A stretch of DNA of 20,000 bases, taken from the IMG/VR virus record IMGVR_UViG_3300017963_000205. One strand, written 5' to 3'. Below the pieces are notes generated by a model. The model was not told the origin of the DNA, searched no databases, and saw nothing but the letters and a program-made list of their open reading frames with translations. Origin of the DNA: an uncultured virus (IMG/VR IMGVR_UViG_3300017963_000205) (lineage: Duplodnaviria; Heunggongvirae; Uroviricota; Caudoviricetes). Of the stretch, positions 2,884 to 12,646 are shown piece by piece (position 1 is the stretch's first letter; each line of letters opens with the position of its first letter). A program made the translations under genes and the position numbers.

Positions 2884-3132
2884 ATGACCCTGAAGGAATT
2901 GGTCAAGATCGCATCTGAGGCGTACCCGGACGATTTGGTTCAGCAGTATCACGACAGTGAAGGCGGCGGGGACACGCTCGCCGAGTTCATCGCTCGTGAG
3001 CTGTCGGACACGTTTGATGAGAAGGCTTCCGACGCCGAACAGCTCGAAGAGGCCCTTCGCGCCATGAGCACCGCTCACAGGGAACTGGGTAACGTCGTGA
3101 CCGCATTGGAGGAACATGATGGTCGAGGTTGA
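2884..3132 (+). CDS. Hypothetical acidic helical protein (82 aa)
   Basis: ATG 2884 follows a purine-rich GGGGGA. The track start at 2755 would cross the terminator. The stop overlaps the start of the next gene. Confidence 0.75.
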   Translation: MTLKELVKIASEAYPDDLVQQYHDSEGGGDTLAEFIARELSDTFDEKASDAEQLEEALRAMSTAHRELGNVVTALEEHDGRG

Positions 3133-3688
3133 TGCCGCCACGGGCGGCGCCTACGAGAAAATCGGCGCCTTCATTGTGGCGCTTGGCAGGGAAGACTCCT
3201 CCGGCCTCCGGCGAGCCCTCTTTGAGAAACTGGAGTTGAACGACTATGAGGGTTTCTACGCGCTGGTGTCTGTGGGAGAGGACTCCTTCAAAACGTTGCG
3301 GCAGATCTGCGGCTTTGAGGTAGAGCAGACAGCTGTCACGCTGGAGGTTTCGCCGAACCCGGAAGGCCCCCGGTTTTTGAACTTCGTGGTCAAGGAGTAC
3401 ATCGGAGCCGAAGTCTACCTCAAGGACGAGGAGCGCGGACTGGTCGTGGCGAAAAACTACGAGGATCTGCAGGAAGGCACGGAGATCTTTGTGCCGGCCC
3501 TATTCGGCGGGTACTATAAGCTCCTGATACTCGACATCGACGACACCAAGAAGGTTGCAGGGGCGGCCTCCACCAAGGAGGAGACGGGCACGGCCGCAAC
3601 GCTCGAATACGACAAGGACGACCGTCACTGCTGGGTGGCGAACGGCATCTTCAATATGGATGCCATGAAGAGGTTGGATTTTCGCTAG
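3116..3688 (+). CDS. Hypothetical protein (190 aa), TAG stop
   Basis: GGAGG upstream of the ATG; protein-like composition; the TAG overlaps the AGGAGG SD of the next gene. Confidence 0.75.
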   Translation: MMVEVDAATGGAYEKIGAFIVALGREDSSGLRRALFEKLELNDYEGFYALVSVGEDSFKTLRQICGFEVEQTAVTLEVSPNPEGPRFLNFVVKEYIGAEVYLKDEERGLVVAKNYEDLQEGTEIFVPALFGGYYKLLILDIDDTKKVAGAASTKEETGTAATLEYDKDDRHCWVANGIFNMDAMKRLDFR

Positions 3689-9954: not shown

Positions 9955-10251
9955 ATGCGAAAAATCCTCGCAGCCCTCGCTCTCACCGTTCTTCTGACCG
10001 GGTGTGTAGACGACCGCATCAAGCGCCAGATCAGTCTGACCAACACTCGGACGCAGGTGGCTGCCAAGGAGTTCAATGAGGCAGCCACGCCAGAGGAAAA
10101 GGTGAAGGTCGCCGACAGATACATCAACGGGGTGCCCGAAAGAGAGGTGCCTGGGATGAAGCACATGACCCAGGTGGCCGACGACTACTTTCAGGGCAAG
10201 GACCCGAAGGACCCGTTGAACATCCTCAAGAAAAAGAAGCCGGACGAGTAG
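9955..10251 (+). CDS. Small lipoprotein (98 aa), TAG stop
   Basis: MRK + hydrophobic stretch + lipobox LTG-C; strong SD TAAGGAGG. Confidence 0.8.
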   Translation: MRKILAALALTVLLTGCVDDRIKRQISLTNTRTQVAAKEFNEAATPEEKVKVADRYINGVPEREVPGMKHMTQVADDYFQGKDPKDPLNILKKKKPDE

Positions 10252-10254
10252 AAG

Positions 10255-10848
10255 GTGGCTTCACTTCTCCGGGAACGCACAGATGAAGAGCTGGAATGGT
10301 TTCTCTTCTTCTCGATCGCTGTTGCCGGCAAAACAGGACTCATTGTCGAGCAGGCCGTCGAGCGCTTCTTCCAGTTTGCGCATGAGCGGCCTTTTGAATA
10401 CATACGACAGTTGATGGCTGATGGTTGGTACACGGCGGCCCTGCGCGCGGCGCGGGTCGGTCAGTACACCAAGATGAACCGAGCCATGAGGCACATCATT
10501 CAAAGCGGGCTCAACCCACGGACCTGCACGCTGGATGAGCTGGAAGCCGTGCCTGGCATCGGGCCGAAGACGGCCCGGTTCTTTCTGCTTTACACGCGCC
10601 CCGGGCAGCGCGTGGCCGCGCTTGACATTCACATCCTGCGGTTTCTGCGCAGGATCGGCGTGGACGCGCCCGACAACACGCCACAGAACCCAAAAACATA
10701 CCGTCGGCTGGAGAAAGCGTTTCTGGATGCTGCCGACGGGTTGGAGATGACCCCTGCCGAGCTGGACGACGTTCTCTGGCGGGGAAGCTCATACAAGCCC
10801 AAAGCGCCTGTAGCTCAGCTGGCAGAGCCGGGTCTTCTAAAGTCCTGA
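10255..10848 (+). CDS. HhH-GPD superfamily DNA glycosylase/AP lyase-like protein (8-oxoG glycosylase-like)
   Basis: HhH motif LEAVPGIGPKTARFFL with Lys, a downstream AALDIHIL Asp motif, and C-terminal YRRLE...ELDDVLW. GTG start with a weak SD. Confidence 0.75.
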   Translation: MASLLRERTDEELEWFLFFSIAVAGKTGLIVEQAVERFFQFAHERPFEYIRQLMADGWYTAALRAARVGQYTKMNRAMRHIIQSGLNPRTCTLDELEAVPGIGPKTARFFLLYTRPGQRVAALDIHILRFLRRIGVDAPDNTPQNPKTYRRLEKAFLDAADGLEMTPAELDDVLWRGSSYKPKAPVAQLAEPGLLKS

Positions 10849-10880
10849 GAGCGTAGGTTCGAGTCCTACCGGGCGCACCA
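10804..10880 (+). tRNA. tRNA with CUA anticodon (amber suppressor), encoded CCA end
   Basis: Acceptor GCGCCTG/CGGGCGC; D arm GCTC-AGCTGGCA-GAGC; anticodon arm GGGTC-TTCTAAA-GTCCT (CTA at 10837-10839; one U-U mismatch, one G-U); T arm GTAGG-TTCGAGT-CCTAC; ends ACCA. Confidence 0.88.
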
Positions 10881-10890
10881 AACCACGAAG

Positions 10891-10973
10891 GGAGGCATCA
10901 TGGGATAGGGCTGTCGCTGTCGTGATCCTCCACGTTTCAGAGCCGTAGACCATTTAACCCTGAATCTGGAGGA
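10891..10973 (+). promoter_or_regulatory. Putative translational switch leader: SD + ATG-GGA-TAG mini-ORF with two mutually exclusive hairpins
   Basis: GGAGG 10891-10895, ATG 10900, TAG 10906-10908. CCTCC (10927-10931) can pair with the upstream GGAGG or, as TCCTCCA, with TGGAGGA (10967-10973), the SD of the next gene. Confidence 0.55.
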
Positions 10974-10980
10974 AATTGGA

Positions 10981-11586
10981 ATGGAAATCACAGTAAGAGA
11001 TGTGGCCGTTCACCACCATCAACGGGTATGTGAGCTGCTGATGGAAACCAAAGACGAGCTGGACGAGATCATGGAGCTGGAGTCGGCCGAAGGCGTGACC
11101 AAGCCCGGTGAACTCGTCTGCAAGAAGAAGAATGGCCGCAGGGTGTACAGCATCTTCTGCGGAGCGCCCGAGGGTTCGAAGGCAAAGGAGGCGTTCAAAG
11201 TCTACGCGCGGTATGAGGGGCTCCGGCACCAATCCAGGATCTGGCACAACATCACGTACGCGTTGAAGCTGTGCGAGCGGCATGGGGTGAGCCCTGAGTC
11301 TGTTGCATTTTCGGGGGTTGCTCTTGCCAAAAGCATGAAAACCGAGAATCACCGCAAGGACTTCTGTGCGGCCACAATGCACATTGCTCCGAAGGCTATG
11401 GGGCGCGGTGAGGTGCGGGCGCTCACATTGGGCGCAGCCAAACAGTTGTTCAAGATCAAGGCGCGCCTCGATAATGGAGGCTACCGCTACGTCCGTGAGT
11501 GGAAGGAGAAGCGGGAAACCGAACGCGCCGAGCGCCAGCAGCAGATGGCAGACACAAAATCTGGGAGGGAACCCGTAACGGTTTAA
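10981..11586 (+). CDS. Hypothetical basic protein (201 aa) upstream of the Pth2-like gene
   Basis: SD GGAGG at 10968-10972; its TAA stop overlaps the TAAGGAGGT SD of the next gene. Confidence 0.8.
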   Translation: MEITVRDVAVHHHQRVCELLMETKDELDEIMELESAEGVTKPGELVCKKKNGRRVYSIFCGAPEGSKAKEAFKVYARYEGLRHQSRIWHNITYALKLCERHGVSPESVAFSGVALAKSMKTENHRKDFCAATMHIAPKAMGRGEVRALTLGAAKQLFKIKARLDNGGYRYVREWKEKRETERAERQQQMADTKSGREPVTV

Positions 11587-11596
11587 GGAGGTAGCC

Positions 11597-11911
11597 ATGA
11601 AGATGTACGTGTTGACCCGGCGTGACCTCACGCCGGCGCAGCGCGTCGTCCAATCATGCCACGCCGTCGCGCAGCTTGTGCTGCGCAGCGGCACGGACCC
11701 ATAGGTCCGGCATTGGGGGGACGCGCATCAGACGCTCGTCGTATTGGGCGTGAACGACCAGGAAGAGCTGGAACGTTGGGAGTCGAGGCTCAAGCAGGAG
11801 AGGGTACACCATGAGGTGTTCGTCGAACCGGATTTCGGCGAACAGAAAACAGCTTTGGCGGTGAGCCCGGCTACCGACCCACGACTATTCAGAGAGCTGC
11901 GGCTTCTCTGA
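11597..11911 (+). CDS. Pth2-like peptidyl-tRNA hydrolase (104 aa) with an in-frame TAG at codon 36 (readthrough gene or pseudogene); absent from the ORF track
   Basis: Reads MKMYVLTRRDLTPAQRVVQSCHAVAQLVLRSGTDP*VRHWGDAHQTLVVLGVNDQEELERWESRLKQERVHHEVFVEPDFGEQKTALAVSPATDPRLFRELRLL. Pth2-fold hallmarks (YvlxRxDL, QxxHA, W, VVL, EPD, TALA, terminal LxLL) lie on both sides of the TAG at 11702-11704. Perfect SD TAAGGAGGT. Confidence 0.85.
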
Positions 11912-11976: not shown

Positions 11977-12303
11977 ATGGCTTTTGATTGGGATCAAGTC
12001 CTTGAGGTGGCAGAGGACAGCGGCAAAGAGCTGCTGGATCTTCTGAAGCCATACATTCCCGCTTTGAAGCGGGAAGGCAAAGAGGTCTATGAGGGTTTCC
12101 TGAAGCATCTGTTCGATGCCGACTGGGAGGCCATAGACCGTCAAATGTACGAACACATGACGCCGGAAGAGCGCGAGGTTCTCGATTCACAAGTCTACAA
12201 GGACGCCATACAGGCCACGCGCGCCAAGTTCCGGCAAAAGGAGCTGGTGCGTGAGGTCATGTTCAGGGTCAGCCTCCGACTCTTGATGGTGGCAATCCTT
12301 TAA
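11977..12303 (+). CDS. Hypothetical protein (108 aa) with a hydrophobic C-terminal tail
   Basis: ATG 11977 after SD AAGGAG; ends VSLRLLMVAIL-TAA. Confidence 0.75.
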   Translation: MAFDWDQVLEVAEDSGKELLDLLKPYIPALKREGKEVYEGFLKHLFDADWEAIDRQMYEHMTPEEREVLDSQVYKDAIQATRAKFRQKELVREVMFRVSLRLLMVAIL

Positions 12304-12331
12304 GCGCTCCTTCCGGCGAAAGGAGGAGCAC

Positions 12332-12646
12332 ATGCAAACGGCGAAGCGATGCCAGATCATCCTATCCCCCCGGTGTTTCGATGACATGTTTGGAAGACGC
12401 ATGAAAATCGTGAACGCCTTTTTAAGTTGGGGGCGGTTAGTCATCAATGTAGAGGGTGTCGGCTTTACCGGAGACTCCGCCGAGGAGGTCATGGTGGAGG
12501 AGTTCGATTCTCTCCCGCAGTTGCGAAACTGGATTGGGAGGCAGCTGACCAATGGAAGTGGTAGCCACGCTCCGGTTTCTAACGCCCAGCCTCGGCAACG
12601 CAAGAGGCGAGCGTCGGGACCGCATGCTGTACAGCACCGAAGGTGA
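12332..12646 (+). CDS. Hypothetical protein (104 aa)
   Basis: Strong SD AAGGAGGAG; the last 95 nt overlap the next gene. Confidence 0.6.
   Translation: MQTAKRCQIILSPRCFDDMFGRRMKIVNAFLSWGRLVINVEGVGFTGDSAEEVMVEEFDSLPQLRNWIGRQLTNGSGSHAPVSNAQPRQRKRRASGPHAVQHRR

What the first reader, a model, noticed from the sequence alone, without database searches (positions are those of the whole stretch)
10891..10983. Amber-containing leader with mutually exclusive SD-sequestering hairpins right after the tRNA
Seen: just after the tRNA CCA comes GGAGG-CATC-ATG-GGA-TAG. Past the TAG the frame stays open for 24 codons and joins ATG 10981 in frame, so readthrough gives a 27-aa N-terminal extension. Hairpin A pairs GGAGG-C-ATCATG (10891-10902) with CGTGAT-CCTCC (10921-10931) and hides the leader's SD and ATG. 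Hairpin B pairs TCCTCCA (10926-10932) with TGGAGGA (10967-10973), plus TTCAG/CTGAA, and hides the SD of the downstream gene. Both use the same CCTCC. Inference: an attenuator-like sensor in which termination versus suppression at the UAG sets translation of the 201-aa gene and the coupled Pth2-like gene. Caveat: the leader SD-ATG spacing is only 4 nt.
Basis: partly seen in the sequence, partly recalled or inferred. Interest (0 to 1): 0.78.

Follow-up and report, generated by a model that had tools for sequence, protein, structure and literature searches.

The report
Suppressor-tRNA-sensing leader in a phage
A two-codon reading frame ending in the stop codon UAG sits just after a phage's own UAG-reading tRNA; it is kept in many distant phages and probably lets that tRNA's activity switch on the two genes behind it.

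Summary
The window belongs to a large phage (about 186-198 kb) that uses the standard code. It holds tRNA(CUA) 10804-10880, then GGGAGG-CATC-ATG-GGA-TAG, an anti-SD UCCUCCA, and a second SD before the 201-aa gene. On its own the window is weak evidence: fold z = +0.2, and SD2 masking is matched by 64 of 1000 spacer shuffles.

Relatives decide the matter. I found the same layout in 15 leaders, which fall into 12 clusters with median PTH2 identity 40% and GC 33-60%. Each has an SD, a start, 1-4 further codons, a stop, an anti-SD 12-37 nt on, SD2, a small gene and nearby a PTH2-like gene. The leader's stop codon matches the phage's suppressor tRNA: TAG with CUA, TAA with UUA. An automated tally over all gate types, including TGA with UCA, gave 26 of 26 matches.

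The read-through frame reaches the anti-SD in 14 of 15. The 27-aa extension and hairpin A are not conserved. The PTH2-like gene itself carries an in-frame TAG at codon 36, which is also conserved.

Best reading: suppression at the leader stop unmasks SD2. No experiment exists. Earlier notes of this scan (e1-3412305, e1-6005110) described amber-gated genes on other DNA; this is the leader form.

The parts
10804..10880 (+). Phage amber-suppressor tRNA, anticodon CUA, with encoded CCA end. The amino acid it carries is not resolved.
   Evidence: ARAGORN. Rfam RF00005 53.3 bits, E 7.8e-11. The nearest phage tRNAs are annotated Lys, Arg or Thr at 76-82% identity.
10890..10895 (+). SD1 (GGGAGG) of the leader minigene, 9 nt after the tRNA's CCA and 4 nt before the ATG.
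   Evidence: Sequence. The same 9-nt gap after a CCA end is seen in relative G003, there after a tmRNA.
10900..10908 (+). Leader minigene ATG-GGA-TAG: a start, one codon and an amber stop.
   Evidence: A start plus one codon plus TAG is seen in 12 of 15 related leaders. The other three have a start plus 2 codons plus TAG (1) or a start plus 4 codons plus TAA (2).
10891..10931 (+). Hairpin A: 10891-10902 pairs with 10921-10931 and masks SD1 and ATG1. It is a minor alternative fold.
   Evidence: -13.9 kcal/mol with pair probability 0.03-0.08. Probability 0.21 in a transcript cut before SD2, and strong in only 3 of 8 relatives.
10926..10932 (+). Anti-SD (UCCUCCA), 17 nt after the leader stop and inside the read-through frame.
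   Evidence: TCCTCCA occurs only twice in 20 kb on the + strand.
10926..10973 (+). Hairpin B: anti-SD 10926-10932 pairs with SD2 10967-10973, plus 10936-10940 with 10960-10964. It masks the SD of the 201-aa gene.
   Evidence: It is in the MFE. Pair probabilities 0.72-0.90 and SD2 unpaired 0.04. An equivalent helix is in the MFE of all 15 related leaders, with G-C to A-U covariation.
10967..10973 (+). SD2 (UGGAGGA) of the 201-aa gene, whose GGAGG core ends 8 nt before ATG 10981.
10981..11586 (+). 'Gene X': a 201-aa helical orphan protein and the first gene of the gated pair.
   Evidence: No Pfam or PHROG hit. One homologue, P0005, at 43% identity and starting at the same MEITVRD. AlphaFold model with pLDDT 66, and no fold match at E <= 0.001.
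11597..11911 (+). PTH2-like (peptidyl-tRNA hydrolase 2 family) gene with its own SD (AAGGAGG) and an in-frame TAG at 11702-11704 (codon 36).
   Evidence: Pfam PF01981 44.7 bits against a cut-off of 23, with the match spanning residues 1-95 across the TAG. TAG confirmed in frame. The same codon-36 TAG is in L090 and L133. A related strain keeps the TAG next to a synonymous change.

Best explanation
The 100 nt between the phage's amber-suppressor tRNA and the 201-aa gene are a translational sensor of that tRNA's activity.

In the resting fold, the anti-SD UCCUCCA (10926-10932) pairs with the SD of the 201-aa gene (10967-10973) and keeps it closed. Ribosomes load on the leader's own SD and AUG (10890-10902). 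If release factor wins at the UAG, they leave after two codons. Their footprint ends short of the anti-SD, which begins 17 nt after the stop, and the gene stays shut. If the phage tRNA(CUA) reads the UAG, the ribosome runs on through the anti-SD and melts the helix. It then either frees SD2 for new ribosomes or delivers itself to the start codon; in this phage it enters the gene in frame.

The PTH2-like gene behind has its own SD and a second amber gate at codon 36. So the small helical protein and the PTH2-like hydrolase are made only when the suppressor tRNA works.

Shown: the sequence anatomy, its conservation, and the match between stop codon and anticodon. Inferred: the direction of control, the ribosome-unmasking step, and the purpose. 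For the purpose, I guess that the hydrolase deals with peptidyl-tRNA or stalled ribosomes produced when stops are read through, or that it tunes the suppressor itself.
For: 1. Anatomy in the window. SD2 unpaired probability is 0.04, hairpin B is in the MFE, and AUG1 is 0.86-0.93 unpaired.

2. The same architecture appears in 15 leaders that form 12 clusters at 70% or more PTH2 identity. Median PTH2 identity is 40% and locus GC is 0.33-0.60. Each has an SD-like tract, a start, 1-4 further codons and a stop, then 62-98 nt to the ATG of a small gene. A PTH2-like gene lies downstream, from overlapping that gene to about 0.9 kb beyond its end.

3. G003 repeats the 5' part almost to the letter after a CCA-ending RNA gene, a tmRNA (Rfam 123 bits): CCA, 9 nt, AGGAGG, 6 nt, ATG TCT TAG. 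The strict pattern found only 5 places in all of IMG/VR. Four of these are chance hits inside reading frames with no tRNA in the locus.

4. My automated rule finds such a leader upstream of PTH2 in 13 of 64 loci, against 1 of 261 other ORFs in the same loci.

5. The stop codon follows the tRNA. Leaders: 9 TAG with CUA, 3 TAA with UUA, none mismatched, and one TAG with no suppressor in the locus. All gate types together: 26 of 26 matched, including 3 early TGA with UCA. L097-99 carry a TAG leader, and the L099 phage has tRNA(CUA) about 11 kb away.

6. In all 15 MFE folds the GGAG core of SD2 pairs with a pyrimidine tract 12-37 nt after the leader stop. In 14 of 15 that tract lies inside the read-through frame or within 12 nt of its end. 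The pair next to the core covaries: G-C in 5 leaders and A-U in 5.

7. SD2 unpaired probability is 0.07 or less in 10 of 15. Spacer shuffles reach the observed masking in 0-14 of 300 for L090, L092, L093, L094 and L095.

8. Read-through frames end on the next start in three relatives: an ATGA overlap in L097 and L143, and 5 nt before the ATG in L093.

9. TAG is really decoded in this lineage. The PTH2 gene has an in-frame TAG at codon 36 in the window, L090 and L133, with Pfam homology on both sides.

10. A suppressor tRNA lies within 3.5 kb of the PTH2-like gene in 49 of 64 loci.
Against: The window's own leader folds no better than shuffles (z +0.20). Its SD2 masking is matched by 6-10% of spacer shuffles.

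The SD1-to-ATG spacing is only 4 nt here, against 6-8 nt in the relatives whose sequence I read (G003, L090, L093).

In 5 of 15 leaders SD2 is only partly masked (unpaired 0.19-0.39). For G003 and L097 shuffles do as well (154 and 120 of 300).

Any SD will pair with any CU-rich tract, so some complementarity comes for free.

In L135 the read-through frame stops 19 nt before the anti-SD.

The SD-like and anti-SD-like rules, and the choice of minigene in 8 leaders, are mine. L094's minigene starts with GTG and rests on a weak SD.

The closest syntenic complete phage, G001/L006, has tRNA(CUA) in the same place but no PTH2 gene. I recognised no such leader when reading the 130 nt after its tRNA.

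The amino acid inserted, the host, and the transcript's ends are all unknown.
Confidence: 0.62

Rival explanations
1. The minigene acts by itself, like the bar minigenes of phage lambda or a 'start-stop' ribosome trap. Ribosomes that translate AUG-GGA-UAG release or drop off fMet-Gly-tRNA, or sit on the site. This loads the cell's peptidyl-tRNA hydrolase system or sets how many ribosomes reach the next gene. The PTH2-like gene downstream is the matching remedy. The suppressor tRNA is not the signal that is sensed.
For: The minigene is a two-codon ORF with a strong SD, the same form as lambda bar (start, one codon, stop; passages of PMC8012679 read). It sits upstream of a peptidyl-tRNA hydrolase family gene. 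Twelve of 15 leaders have exactly a start, one codon and a stop.
Against: The second codon is not conserved: GGA, TCT, CTC, ACG, TTG, CGT, TGG, ACC and ATG all occur, so no single tRNA is targeted. The stop codon follows the phage's suppressor anticodon in 12 of 12 leaders, which this model does not require. The TAA leaders have four codons after the start. The model does not explain the anti-SD lying in the read-through path in 14 of 15.
Confidence: 0.15
2. The real gene starts at ATG 10900 and TAG is simply a sense codon. The product is a 228-aa protein and there is no regulatory leader.
For: The frame is open from the TAG to ATG 10981 and in phase. TAG is decoded elsewhere in this phage, in PTH2 codon 36. 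In 23 of 63 related loci the PTH2-like gene itself begins M-x(1-4)-TAG in frame.
Against: GC3 of the 24 codons is 0.375 against 0.58-0.79 in 19 genes. Homologue P0005 starts at MEITVRD. ATG 10981 has its own GGAGG at ideal spacing. In 14 of 15 related leaders the read-through frame is closed or out of phase before the next gene. In this phage read-through ribosomes would still make some 228-aa form as a by-product.
Confidence: 0.06
3. The leader senses release factor 1 (or general termination capacity) of the host rather than the phage tRNA. Slow termination at the UAG holds the ribosome and alters the fold.
For: The logic resembles that of the RF2 gene's in-frame UGA (recalled knowledge). A ribosome waiting at the UAG would keep hairpin A open and leave the anti-SD free for SD2.
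Against: The stop codon tracks the phage's own suppressor anticodon across TAG, TAA and TGA (26 of 26). TAA is read by both release factors. A ribosome paused at the stop would not reach the anti-SD, which begins 12-37 nt after the stop's last base.
Confidence: 0.07
4. The region is an ordinary spacer, or a 3' processing signal of the tRNA, and the SD, ATG, TAG and hairpins are chance.
For: The window's own statistics are weak. In both the window and G003 the motif follows a CCA-ending RNA gene at the same 9-nt distance.
Against: In 11 of the 13 other leaders no RNA gene was called just upstream of the leader. In L159 a tRNA(CUA) lies 85 nt upstream of the minigene. In L133 one lies about 850 nt upstream. 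In most of the rest the tRNA is downstream of PTH2. The leader is conserved across 12 clusters, against 1 of 261 background ORFs.
Confidence: 0.04

Closest known systems
Translational attenuation by leader ORFs (ermC and cat type), and translational coupling through SD-masking hairpins
   Same: A short leader ORF has its own SD. The downstream SD is locked in a hairpin. A ribosome that reaches or stays on the 5' arm opens the hairpin.
   Different: There the signal is a drug-stalled or amino-acid-starved ribosome (recalled knowledge). Here the signal would be read-through of the leader's stop codon by a phage-encoded suppressor tRNA, and the leader is only two codons long. I found no paper describing this.
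Autoregulation of release factor 2 (prfB) by an in-frame UGA
   Same: An early in-frame stop codon serves as a sensor of the decoding machinery, and the outcome at the stop decides whether the protein is made (recalled knowledge).
   Different: prfB uses a +1 frameshift and senses the release factor it encodes. Here read-through by a tRNA is sensed and the output is another gene, through RNA structure.
Stop-codon recoding in phages (TAG read as Gln, 'code 15': crAss-like, Lak and others) as a gate on late genes
   Same: The phage carries a tRNA(CUA), and genes with in-frame TAG can only be made once it acts. I saw only the listings and abstract starts of 10.1101/2021.08.26.457843 and PMC9523058.
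   Different: This phage is not recoded. One of 19 genes in the window has an in-frame TAG and 2 of 19 end in TAG. The gate sits on one small operon, and partly in an untranslated leader.
Amber-gated PTH2-like genes noted earlier in this scan (e1-3412305, e1-6005110)
   Same: A standard-code phage, its own suppressor tRNA, and a small hydrolase-like gene with TAG at about the third codon. I reproduced this: 23 of 63 loci start M-x(1-4)-TAG, and 21 of the 23 have tRNA(CUA) in the locus.
   Different: Here the start-codon-TAG unit is detached. It lies 62-98 nt upstream of another gene and works, as I read it, through an anti-SD hairpin. PTH2 carries a further TAG at codon 36.
Lambda bar minigenes
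   Same: A two-codon ORF plus stop, and a link to peptidyl-tRNA hydrolase (PMC8012679, passages).
   Different: bar depends on a particular last codon (AUA) and on limiting Pth. Here the codon varies and the stop codon is what is conserved.
Orphan suppressor tRNAs of jumbo phages (XacN1, Atu_ph07)
   Same: Standard-code phages with CUA or UCA suppressor tRNAs and PTH genes (PMC5852040 and PMC6102473, passages).
   Different: For XacN1 the authors report that in-silico read-through of its 18 amber stops found no target. For Atu_ph07 the authors only note that UGA stops are abundant. The present family offers targets. XacN1's own PTH2-like domain is fused to an HD-type domain and has no TAG.

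Membership tests
Leader-ORF translational attenuator (SD-masking hairpin opened by leader translation) | Short leader ORF with its own ribosome-binding site upstream of the regulated gene | tested here: met
   GGGAGG-N4-ATG-GGA-TAG at 10890-10908. An equivalent is present in 15 leaders.
Leader-ORF translational attenuator (SD-masking hairpin opened by leader translation) | The downstream SD is paired with an upstream complementary segment | tested here: met
   In silico only. SD2 unpaired 0.04 in the window. The helix is in the MFE of 15 of 15 leaders, SD2 unpaired is 0.07 or less in 10 of 15, and the pairs show G-C/A-U covariation. The window alone is not significant (64 of 1000 shuffles).
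Leader-ORF translational attenuator (SD-masking hairpin opened by leader translation) | The position of the leader ribosome decides the fold (the masking arm lies in the ribosome's path only in the 'on' state) | tested here: met
   The anti-SD begins 12-37 nt after the leader stop's last base. It lies inside the read-through frame or within 12 nt of its end in 14 of 15.
Leader-ORF translational attenuator (SD-masking hairpin opened by leader translation) | Downstream expression responds to the signal in vivo | not testable with these tools
   Needs reporter, toeprint or profiling experiments.
   Hairpin A exists in the window (-13.9 kcal/mol) but has probability 0.03-0.08, or 0.21 before SD2 is made. 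It is strong in 3 of 8 relatives and near zero in 4.
Stop-codon-recoded phage (code 15) | TAG used as a sense codon in many genes and avoided as a stop | tested here: not met
   One of 19 genes has an in-frame TAG and 2 of 19 end in TAG. The 938-aa tail fibre has none. Only this 20-kb window was examined.
Lambda bar-type toxic minigene | Two-codon ORF plus stop with an SD | tested here: met
   12 of 15 leaders.
Lambda bar-type toxic minigene | A specific last sense codon whose tRNA is sequestered, and toxicity when Pth is limiting | tested here: not met
   The second codon varies among 9 different codons. Toxicity cannot be tested here.
PTH2 peptidyl-tRNA hydrolase family (PF01981), for the downstream gene | Profile match over the domain above the curated cut-off | tested here: met
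   44.7 bits against a cut-off of 23, residues 1-95 matching profile positions 1-103 of 115, with X at the TAG. Also phrog_3668 and phrog_1866. Catalytic activity was not tested.
tRNA (RF00005), amber suppressor | Cloverleaf above the gathering score, with anticodon CUA | tested here: met
   53.3 bits against 29. Anticodon CUA. There is one U-U mismatch in the anticodon stem. Charging identity is unresolved.

The most novel reading that the evidence does not exclude
Standard-code phages carry a dedicated circuit that senses stop-codon suppression. A PTH2-like hydrolase, often with a small partner gene, is locked behind a stop codon that only the phage's own suppressor tRNA can read: UAG with CUA, UAA with UUA, UGA with UCA. 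The lock takes three interchangeable forms: a detached two-codon leader minigene acting through an anti-SD hairpin (this window), a stop at about codon 3 of the gene, or a stop inside the gene. This would give the long-unexplained 'orphan' suppressor tRNAs of large phages a defined target. It would also mean that the hydrolase and the suppressor form a functional pair, for example cleaning up after read-through or setting the suppressor's level.
Probability: 0.5. Interest if true: 0.9.

Novelty: new variant of a known kind. Interest (0 to 1): 0.82.

Why it matters
Large phages that keep the standard genetic code often carry suppressor tRNAs for which no target is known. The XacN1 authors, for example, looked for targets and found none (PMC5852040, passages read). 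This leader, with its relatives, supplies a concrete and conserved target, and a mechanism that can be tested with simple reporters.

It would be a natural case of gene control by stop-codon read-through of a leader ORF coupled to an SD-masking hairpin. My four literature searches did not find this design described. It ties together three pieces of translation quality control that phages carry: the suppressor tRNA, PTH2, and in one relative a tmRNA placed directly before the leader.

It also matters for annotation. Gene callers split or truncate these PTH2-like genes and miss the minigenes.

Tried and rejected
- Close relatives of the 201-aa gene. None were found in IMG/VR or in GTDB genomes. 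The JGI scan returned only the identical contig, with 0 differences in 8603 bases.
- No whole genome is held for the window.
- Sequencing runs. No RNA holder was listed. Contigs of the two partial holders did not cover 10908-11075, so the leader's variation within the population could not be read.
- G001/L006, the closest syntenic complete phage. It has no PTH2. A look-alike GGAGATCATGGGATAG turned out to be antisense inside a gene, so it is a chance hit at the rate of the reversed-pattern control.
- The word-based search for PTH2 homologues found nothing.
- Function of the 201-aa protein. There was no Pfam or PHROG hit, the Atlas hits were all below 0.9 and TM below 0.5, the AlphaFold model had pLDDT 66, and Foldseek on the PDB gave nothing at E <= 0.001.
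- Amino acid at the TAG. Aligned residues in relatives are S, Y, Y, C and E in a variable loop, and the tRNA's nearest relatives are Lys, Arg and Thr. This stays undecided.
- Second tRNA or known RNA family in the leader. None was found.
- Terminator or promoter between the tRNA and the gene. None was predicted.
- The 8-sequence PTH2 alignment was too diverse for a locus scan, so a 5-sequence subset was used.
- I did not build a covariance model. The leaders are too diverged to align by MAFFT; A4 already misaligns SD2.
Full report
WHAT IS IN THE WINDOW

All credible genes lie on the + strand, and they are those of a large tailed phage. They include:
- a collagen-like tail fibre (3-2819);
- SbcD- and SbcC-like nucleases;
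- a small lipoprotein (9955-10251);
- an HhH-GPD glycosylase (10255-10848, phrog_11575);
- a helicase, a DnaB-like helicase, a primase and a family-A polymerase.

Identical sequence lies on contigs of 186-198 kb. GC is about 0.58-0.69.

One tRNA is present, at 10804-10880, with anticodon CUA and an encoded CCA. It is a normal cloverleaf by Rfam (53.3 bits). Its nearest phage tRNAs are annotated Lys, Arg or Thr at 76-82% identity, so I cannot say which amino acid it carries.

The phage is not recoded. Of 19 genes, 14 end in TGA, 3 in TAA and 2 in TAG. Only one gene has TAG in frame.

That gene is the PTH2-like gene at 11597-11911. TAG 11702-11704 is its codon 36, and the Pfam PTH2 match (44.7 bits against a cut-off of 23) runs across it from residue 1 to 95.

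CHECK OF THE OBSERVATION

After CCA (10878-10880) come 9 nt, then GGGAGG (10890-10895), CATC, ATG 10900, GGA and TAG 10906-10908. An open frame of 24 codons then joins ATG 10981 in phase.

Hairpin A is 10891-10902 with 10921-10931. It has 11 standard pairs and one bulge and scores -13.9 kcal/mol. Hairpin B is 10926-10932 with 10967-10973, plus 10936-10940 with 10960-10964, and scores -14.0 kcal/mol. Both exist and share CCUCC.

In the ensemble B dominates (0.72-0.90) and A is minor (0.03-0.08). Forcing A costs 2.5 kcal/mol.

Taken alone, this is weak:
- The leader folds no better than shuffles (z +0.20, with 108 of 200 as good).
- SD2 is as well masked in 64 of 1000 and 30 of 300 spacer shuffles.
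- Another gene of the window (12332) has an equally masked SD.
- Only the motif GGAGG-N3-10-ATG-NNN-TAG is unusual: 0.04 are expected per window, and the looser GGAG form occurs 8 times in about 650 kb of unrelated loci on both strands.

THE 27-aa EXTENSION IS NOT THE POINT

GC3 of the 24 codons is 0.375, against 0.58-0.79 in 19 genes. ATG 10981 has its own GGAGG 8 nt upstream. The only protein homologue, P0005 (43% identity), starts at the same MEITVRD.

RELATIVES

Direct searches with the 201-aa protein failed. The way in was synteny.

The glycosylase led to L006, a complete 211-kb phage with the order lipoprotein, glycosylase, tRNA(CUA) (I scanned 50 of the 77 loci for tRNAs). The gene after PTH2 (11977-12303) has a homologue there. 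An alignment of the two found a second relative, G003.

G003 has, in order:
- the lipoprotein and a tRNA(CUA);
- further on, a phage tmRNA (Rfam 123.4 bits);
- directly after the tmRNA's CCA, 9 nt, AGGAGG, 6 nt, ATG TCT TAG;
- 77 nt later, an SD and the ATG of a 169-aa gene;
- then a PTH2-like gene.

The 5' part aligns with the window almost base for base. The strict pattern CCAAAC-N7-GGAGG-N4-6-ATG-NNN-TAG occurs at 5 places in all of IMG/VR. One is G003. The other four are chance hits inside reading frames with no tRNA in the locus.

Searching with PTH2 alignments gave 10 loci and then 64 loci. Reading them by eye and with a fixed rule gave 15 leaders in all. These fall into 12 clusters at 70% or more PTH2 identity, with median identity 40% and locus GC 0.33-0.60.

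THE SHARED PLAN

1. An SD-like tract, then a start codon. The start is ATG in 14 leaders and GTG in L094.
2. A very short frame:
   - start plus one codon plus TAG in 12 leaders;
   - start plus two codons plus TAG in L097;
   - start plus four codons plus TAA in L095 and L143.
3. A pyrimidine anti-SD 12-37 nt after that stop.
4. SD2 and the ATG of a small gene, 62-98 nt after the stop.
5. A PTH2-like gene behind. It overlaps the end of the small gene in L092-L094, lies 10 nt after it in the window, about 200 nt after it in G003 and about 0.9 kb after it in L090.

The second codon is not conserved; nine different codons occur.

With my rule, such a leader is found upstream of PTH2 in 13 of 64 loci, against 1 of 261 other ORFs of the same loci.

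THE STOP CODON FOLLOWS THE tRNA

A suppressor tRNA lies within 3.5 kb of the PTH2-like gene in 49 of 64 loci: 41 CUA, 4 UUA and 4 UCA.

Among leaders found by the rule, 9 TAG leaders go with CUA and 3 TAA leaders with UUA. None is mismatched, and one TAG leader has no suppressor in its locus. L097-99 have a TAG leader and no suppressor nearby, but the L099 phage has a tRNA(CUA) about 11 kb away.

The rule counts every kind of gate it detected. It gives 26 gate-tRNA pairs with no mismatch:
- leader TAG/CUA 9;
- leader TAA/UUA 3;
- early TAG/CUA 6;
- early TGA/UCA 3 (L157, L182, L190);
- internal TAG/CUA 5.

By the looser test, 23 of 63 loci begin the PTH2-like gene itself with M-x(1-4)-TAG in frame. 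Of these, 21 have tRNA(CUA) in the locus, 2 have none, and none has another suppressor.

This reproduces what earlier notes of this scan reported on other DNA (e1-3412305 and e1-6005110, seen).

THE HAIRPIN

In all 15 MFE folds the GGAG core of SD2 pairs with the anti-SD. SD2 unpaired probability is 0.07 or less in 10 leaders and 0.19-0.39 in 5 (G003, L097, L133, L135, L170).

Of the 8 leaders tested by spacer shuffles, the number of shuffles out of 300 that reach the observed masking was:

| Leader | Shuffles as well masked (of 300) |
|---|---|
| L093 | 0 |
| L095 | 0 |
| L090 | 7 |
| L092 | 9 |
| L094 | 14 |
| window | 30 |
| L097 | 120 |
| G003 | 154 |

The pair next to the core covaries. 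GGAGG pairs with CCUCC in 5 leaders (window, L092, L093, L095, L143). GGAGA pairs with UCUCC, or UCUCU in L094, in 5 (L090, L094, L147, L149, L159). Between the window and G003, A10932-U10967 corresponds to a U-A pair (and my reading of A4).

The read-through frame contains the anti-SD, or ends within 12 nt of it, in 14 of 15; L135 is the exception. It ends on the next start in L097 and L143 (ATGA overlap) and 5 nt before it in L093. It is open into the next gene only in the window.

Hairpin A is less general. In transcripts cut before SD2, the anti-SD pairs with the SD1/AUG1 region at 0.67-1.0 in L090, L092 and L093, at 0.21 in the window, at up to 0.26 in L094, and at 0.08 or less in G003, L095 and L097.

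TAG IS DECODED

The codon-36 TAG of PTH2 (…DP-TAG-V[RK]xW…) is shared by the window, L090 and L133. L136, L165 and L180 have a TAG at codons 31-39 of the match.

A low-depth contig of a related strain (run X4, 188 nt, 7 differences) keeps the TAG, with a synonymous change in the codon before it.

MECHANISM

Shown:
- the anatomy;
- its conservation;
- the match between stop codon and anticodon;
- the anti-SD lying in the read-through path.

Inferred:
- With hairpin B closed, ribosomes start on the minigene.
- Release at the stop leaves B closed.
- Read-through by the phage tRNA carries the ribosome across the anti-SD. This opens SD2 or couples the ribosome directly to the next start.
- PTH2 then needs the tRNA again at codon 36.

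Why a hydrolase should be tied to suppressor activity is a guess. It may clear peptidyl-tRNA and stalled ribosomes that read-through produces; a tmRNA sits before the leader in G003. Or it may act on the suppressor itself.

I give the sensor model 0.62. The rivals are:
- a bar-like minigene acting by itself (0.15);
- an RF1 sensor (0.07);
- a plain 228-aa gene (0.06);
- chance or a tRNA processing signal (0.04).

LITERATURE

- Phage PTH2 is known as part of an RNA-repair and ribosome-rescue kit of jumbo phages (PMC7824862, passages; the word 'suppressor' does not occur in its main text).
- The XacN1 authors found no target for its two CUA suppressors (PMC5852040, passages).
- Atu_ph07 has a UCA suppressor and two PTH genes (PMC6102473, passages).
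- Bar minigenes are described in PMC8012679 (passages).
- Recoding as a gate on late genes: I saw only listings and abstract starts, plus passages of PMC13037316.
- Four full-text searches found no paper on a leader or gene gated by a phage's suppressor tRNA in standard-code phages. Supplements were not read.

LIMITS

- Everything is in silico.
- The motif rules are mine.
- The 15 leaders are not independent draws, although they form 12 clusters.
- Loci overlap between the two scans: L132/L090, L134/L092, L137/L093, L139/L094 and L140-141/L095-096.
- Many CUA loci (25 of 41) had no gate by the strict rule, though most of these are early-TAG.
- The host, the transcript ends and the tRNA's amino acid are unknown.

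Noticed in passing
window 11597-11911 (TAG at 11702-11704): The PTH2-like gene has an in-frame amber codon at codon 36, with Pfam homology on both sides. The same codon-36 TAG is in L090 and L133, and a related strain in run X4 keeps it.
   Followed up: yes
L084 3434-3800 (G003): A phage-encoded tmRNA (Rfam 123.4 bits) that ARAGORN did not call. The conserved leader starts 9 nt after its CCA, the same spacing as after the tRNA(CUA) in the window.
   Followed up: partly
L094 4806-5102: A phage-encoded bacterial-type RNase P RNA (RF00010, 173.9 bits) inside a cluster of 12 tRNAs, next to the PTH2-like gene and tRNA(CUA).
   Followed up: no
L190 about 1700-1732; L182 and L157 about 3440-3500: PTH2-like genes preceded in frame by a short ORF ending in TGA (for example M-E-H-TGA in L190), in loci whose suppressor tRNA has anticodon UCA. 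These are opal versions of the gate.
   Followed up: partly
window 10249-10257: The lipoprotein gene ends in TAG, followed by AAG GTG, and the GTG is the glycosylase start in the same frame. Read-through by the tRNA(CUA) would fuse a lipoprotein signal peptide to a DNA glycosylase. In relative L006 the two genes overlap as ATGA instead.
   Followed up: partly
window 10804-10848: The glycosylase ORF runs 45 nt into the tRNA gene and stops at a TGA in the anticodon arm. In L006 it stops at a TAG in the tRNA's 5' part.
   Followed up: no
window 12273-12334: The SD of gene 12332 is also predicted to be fully masked (unpaired 0.00). A CCTCC at 12273 lies in the end of the preceding gene.
   Followed up: no
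L090 2273-2349: A tRNA-like gene (Rfam 55 bits) for which ARAGORN reads a four-letter anticodon 'gaaa'. It lies between the gated small gene and the PTH2-like gene.
   Followed up: no
L079 961-1800 (Xanthomonas phage XacN1 ORF364); L080 (Xoo-sp13): The PTH2-like domain is the C-terminal third of a 279-aa protein whose N-terminal part has an HD-like motif. There is no in-frame TAG, although XacN1 carries two CUA suppressors.
   Followed up: partly
L092, L093 and L094, about 3001-3089: The small gene before PTH2 overlaps the PTH2 start in another frame, by about 90 nt in L092 and L093 and about 26 nt in L094. This may be a real overlap or a frameshift site.
   Followed up: no
L084 1410-2315 (G003): A caspase-like (HG…CH motifs) 301-aa gene and a MazG-like gene sit where the window has the glycosylase, directly before the tRNA(CUA).
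   Followed up: no
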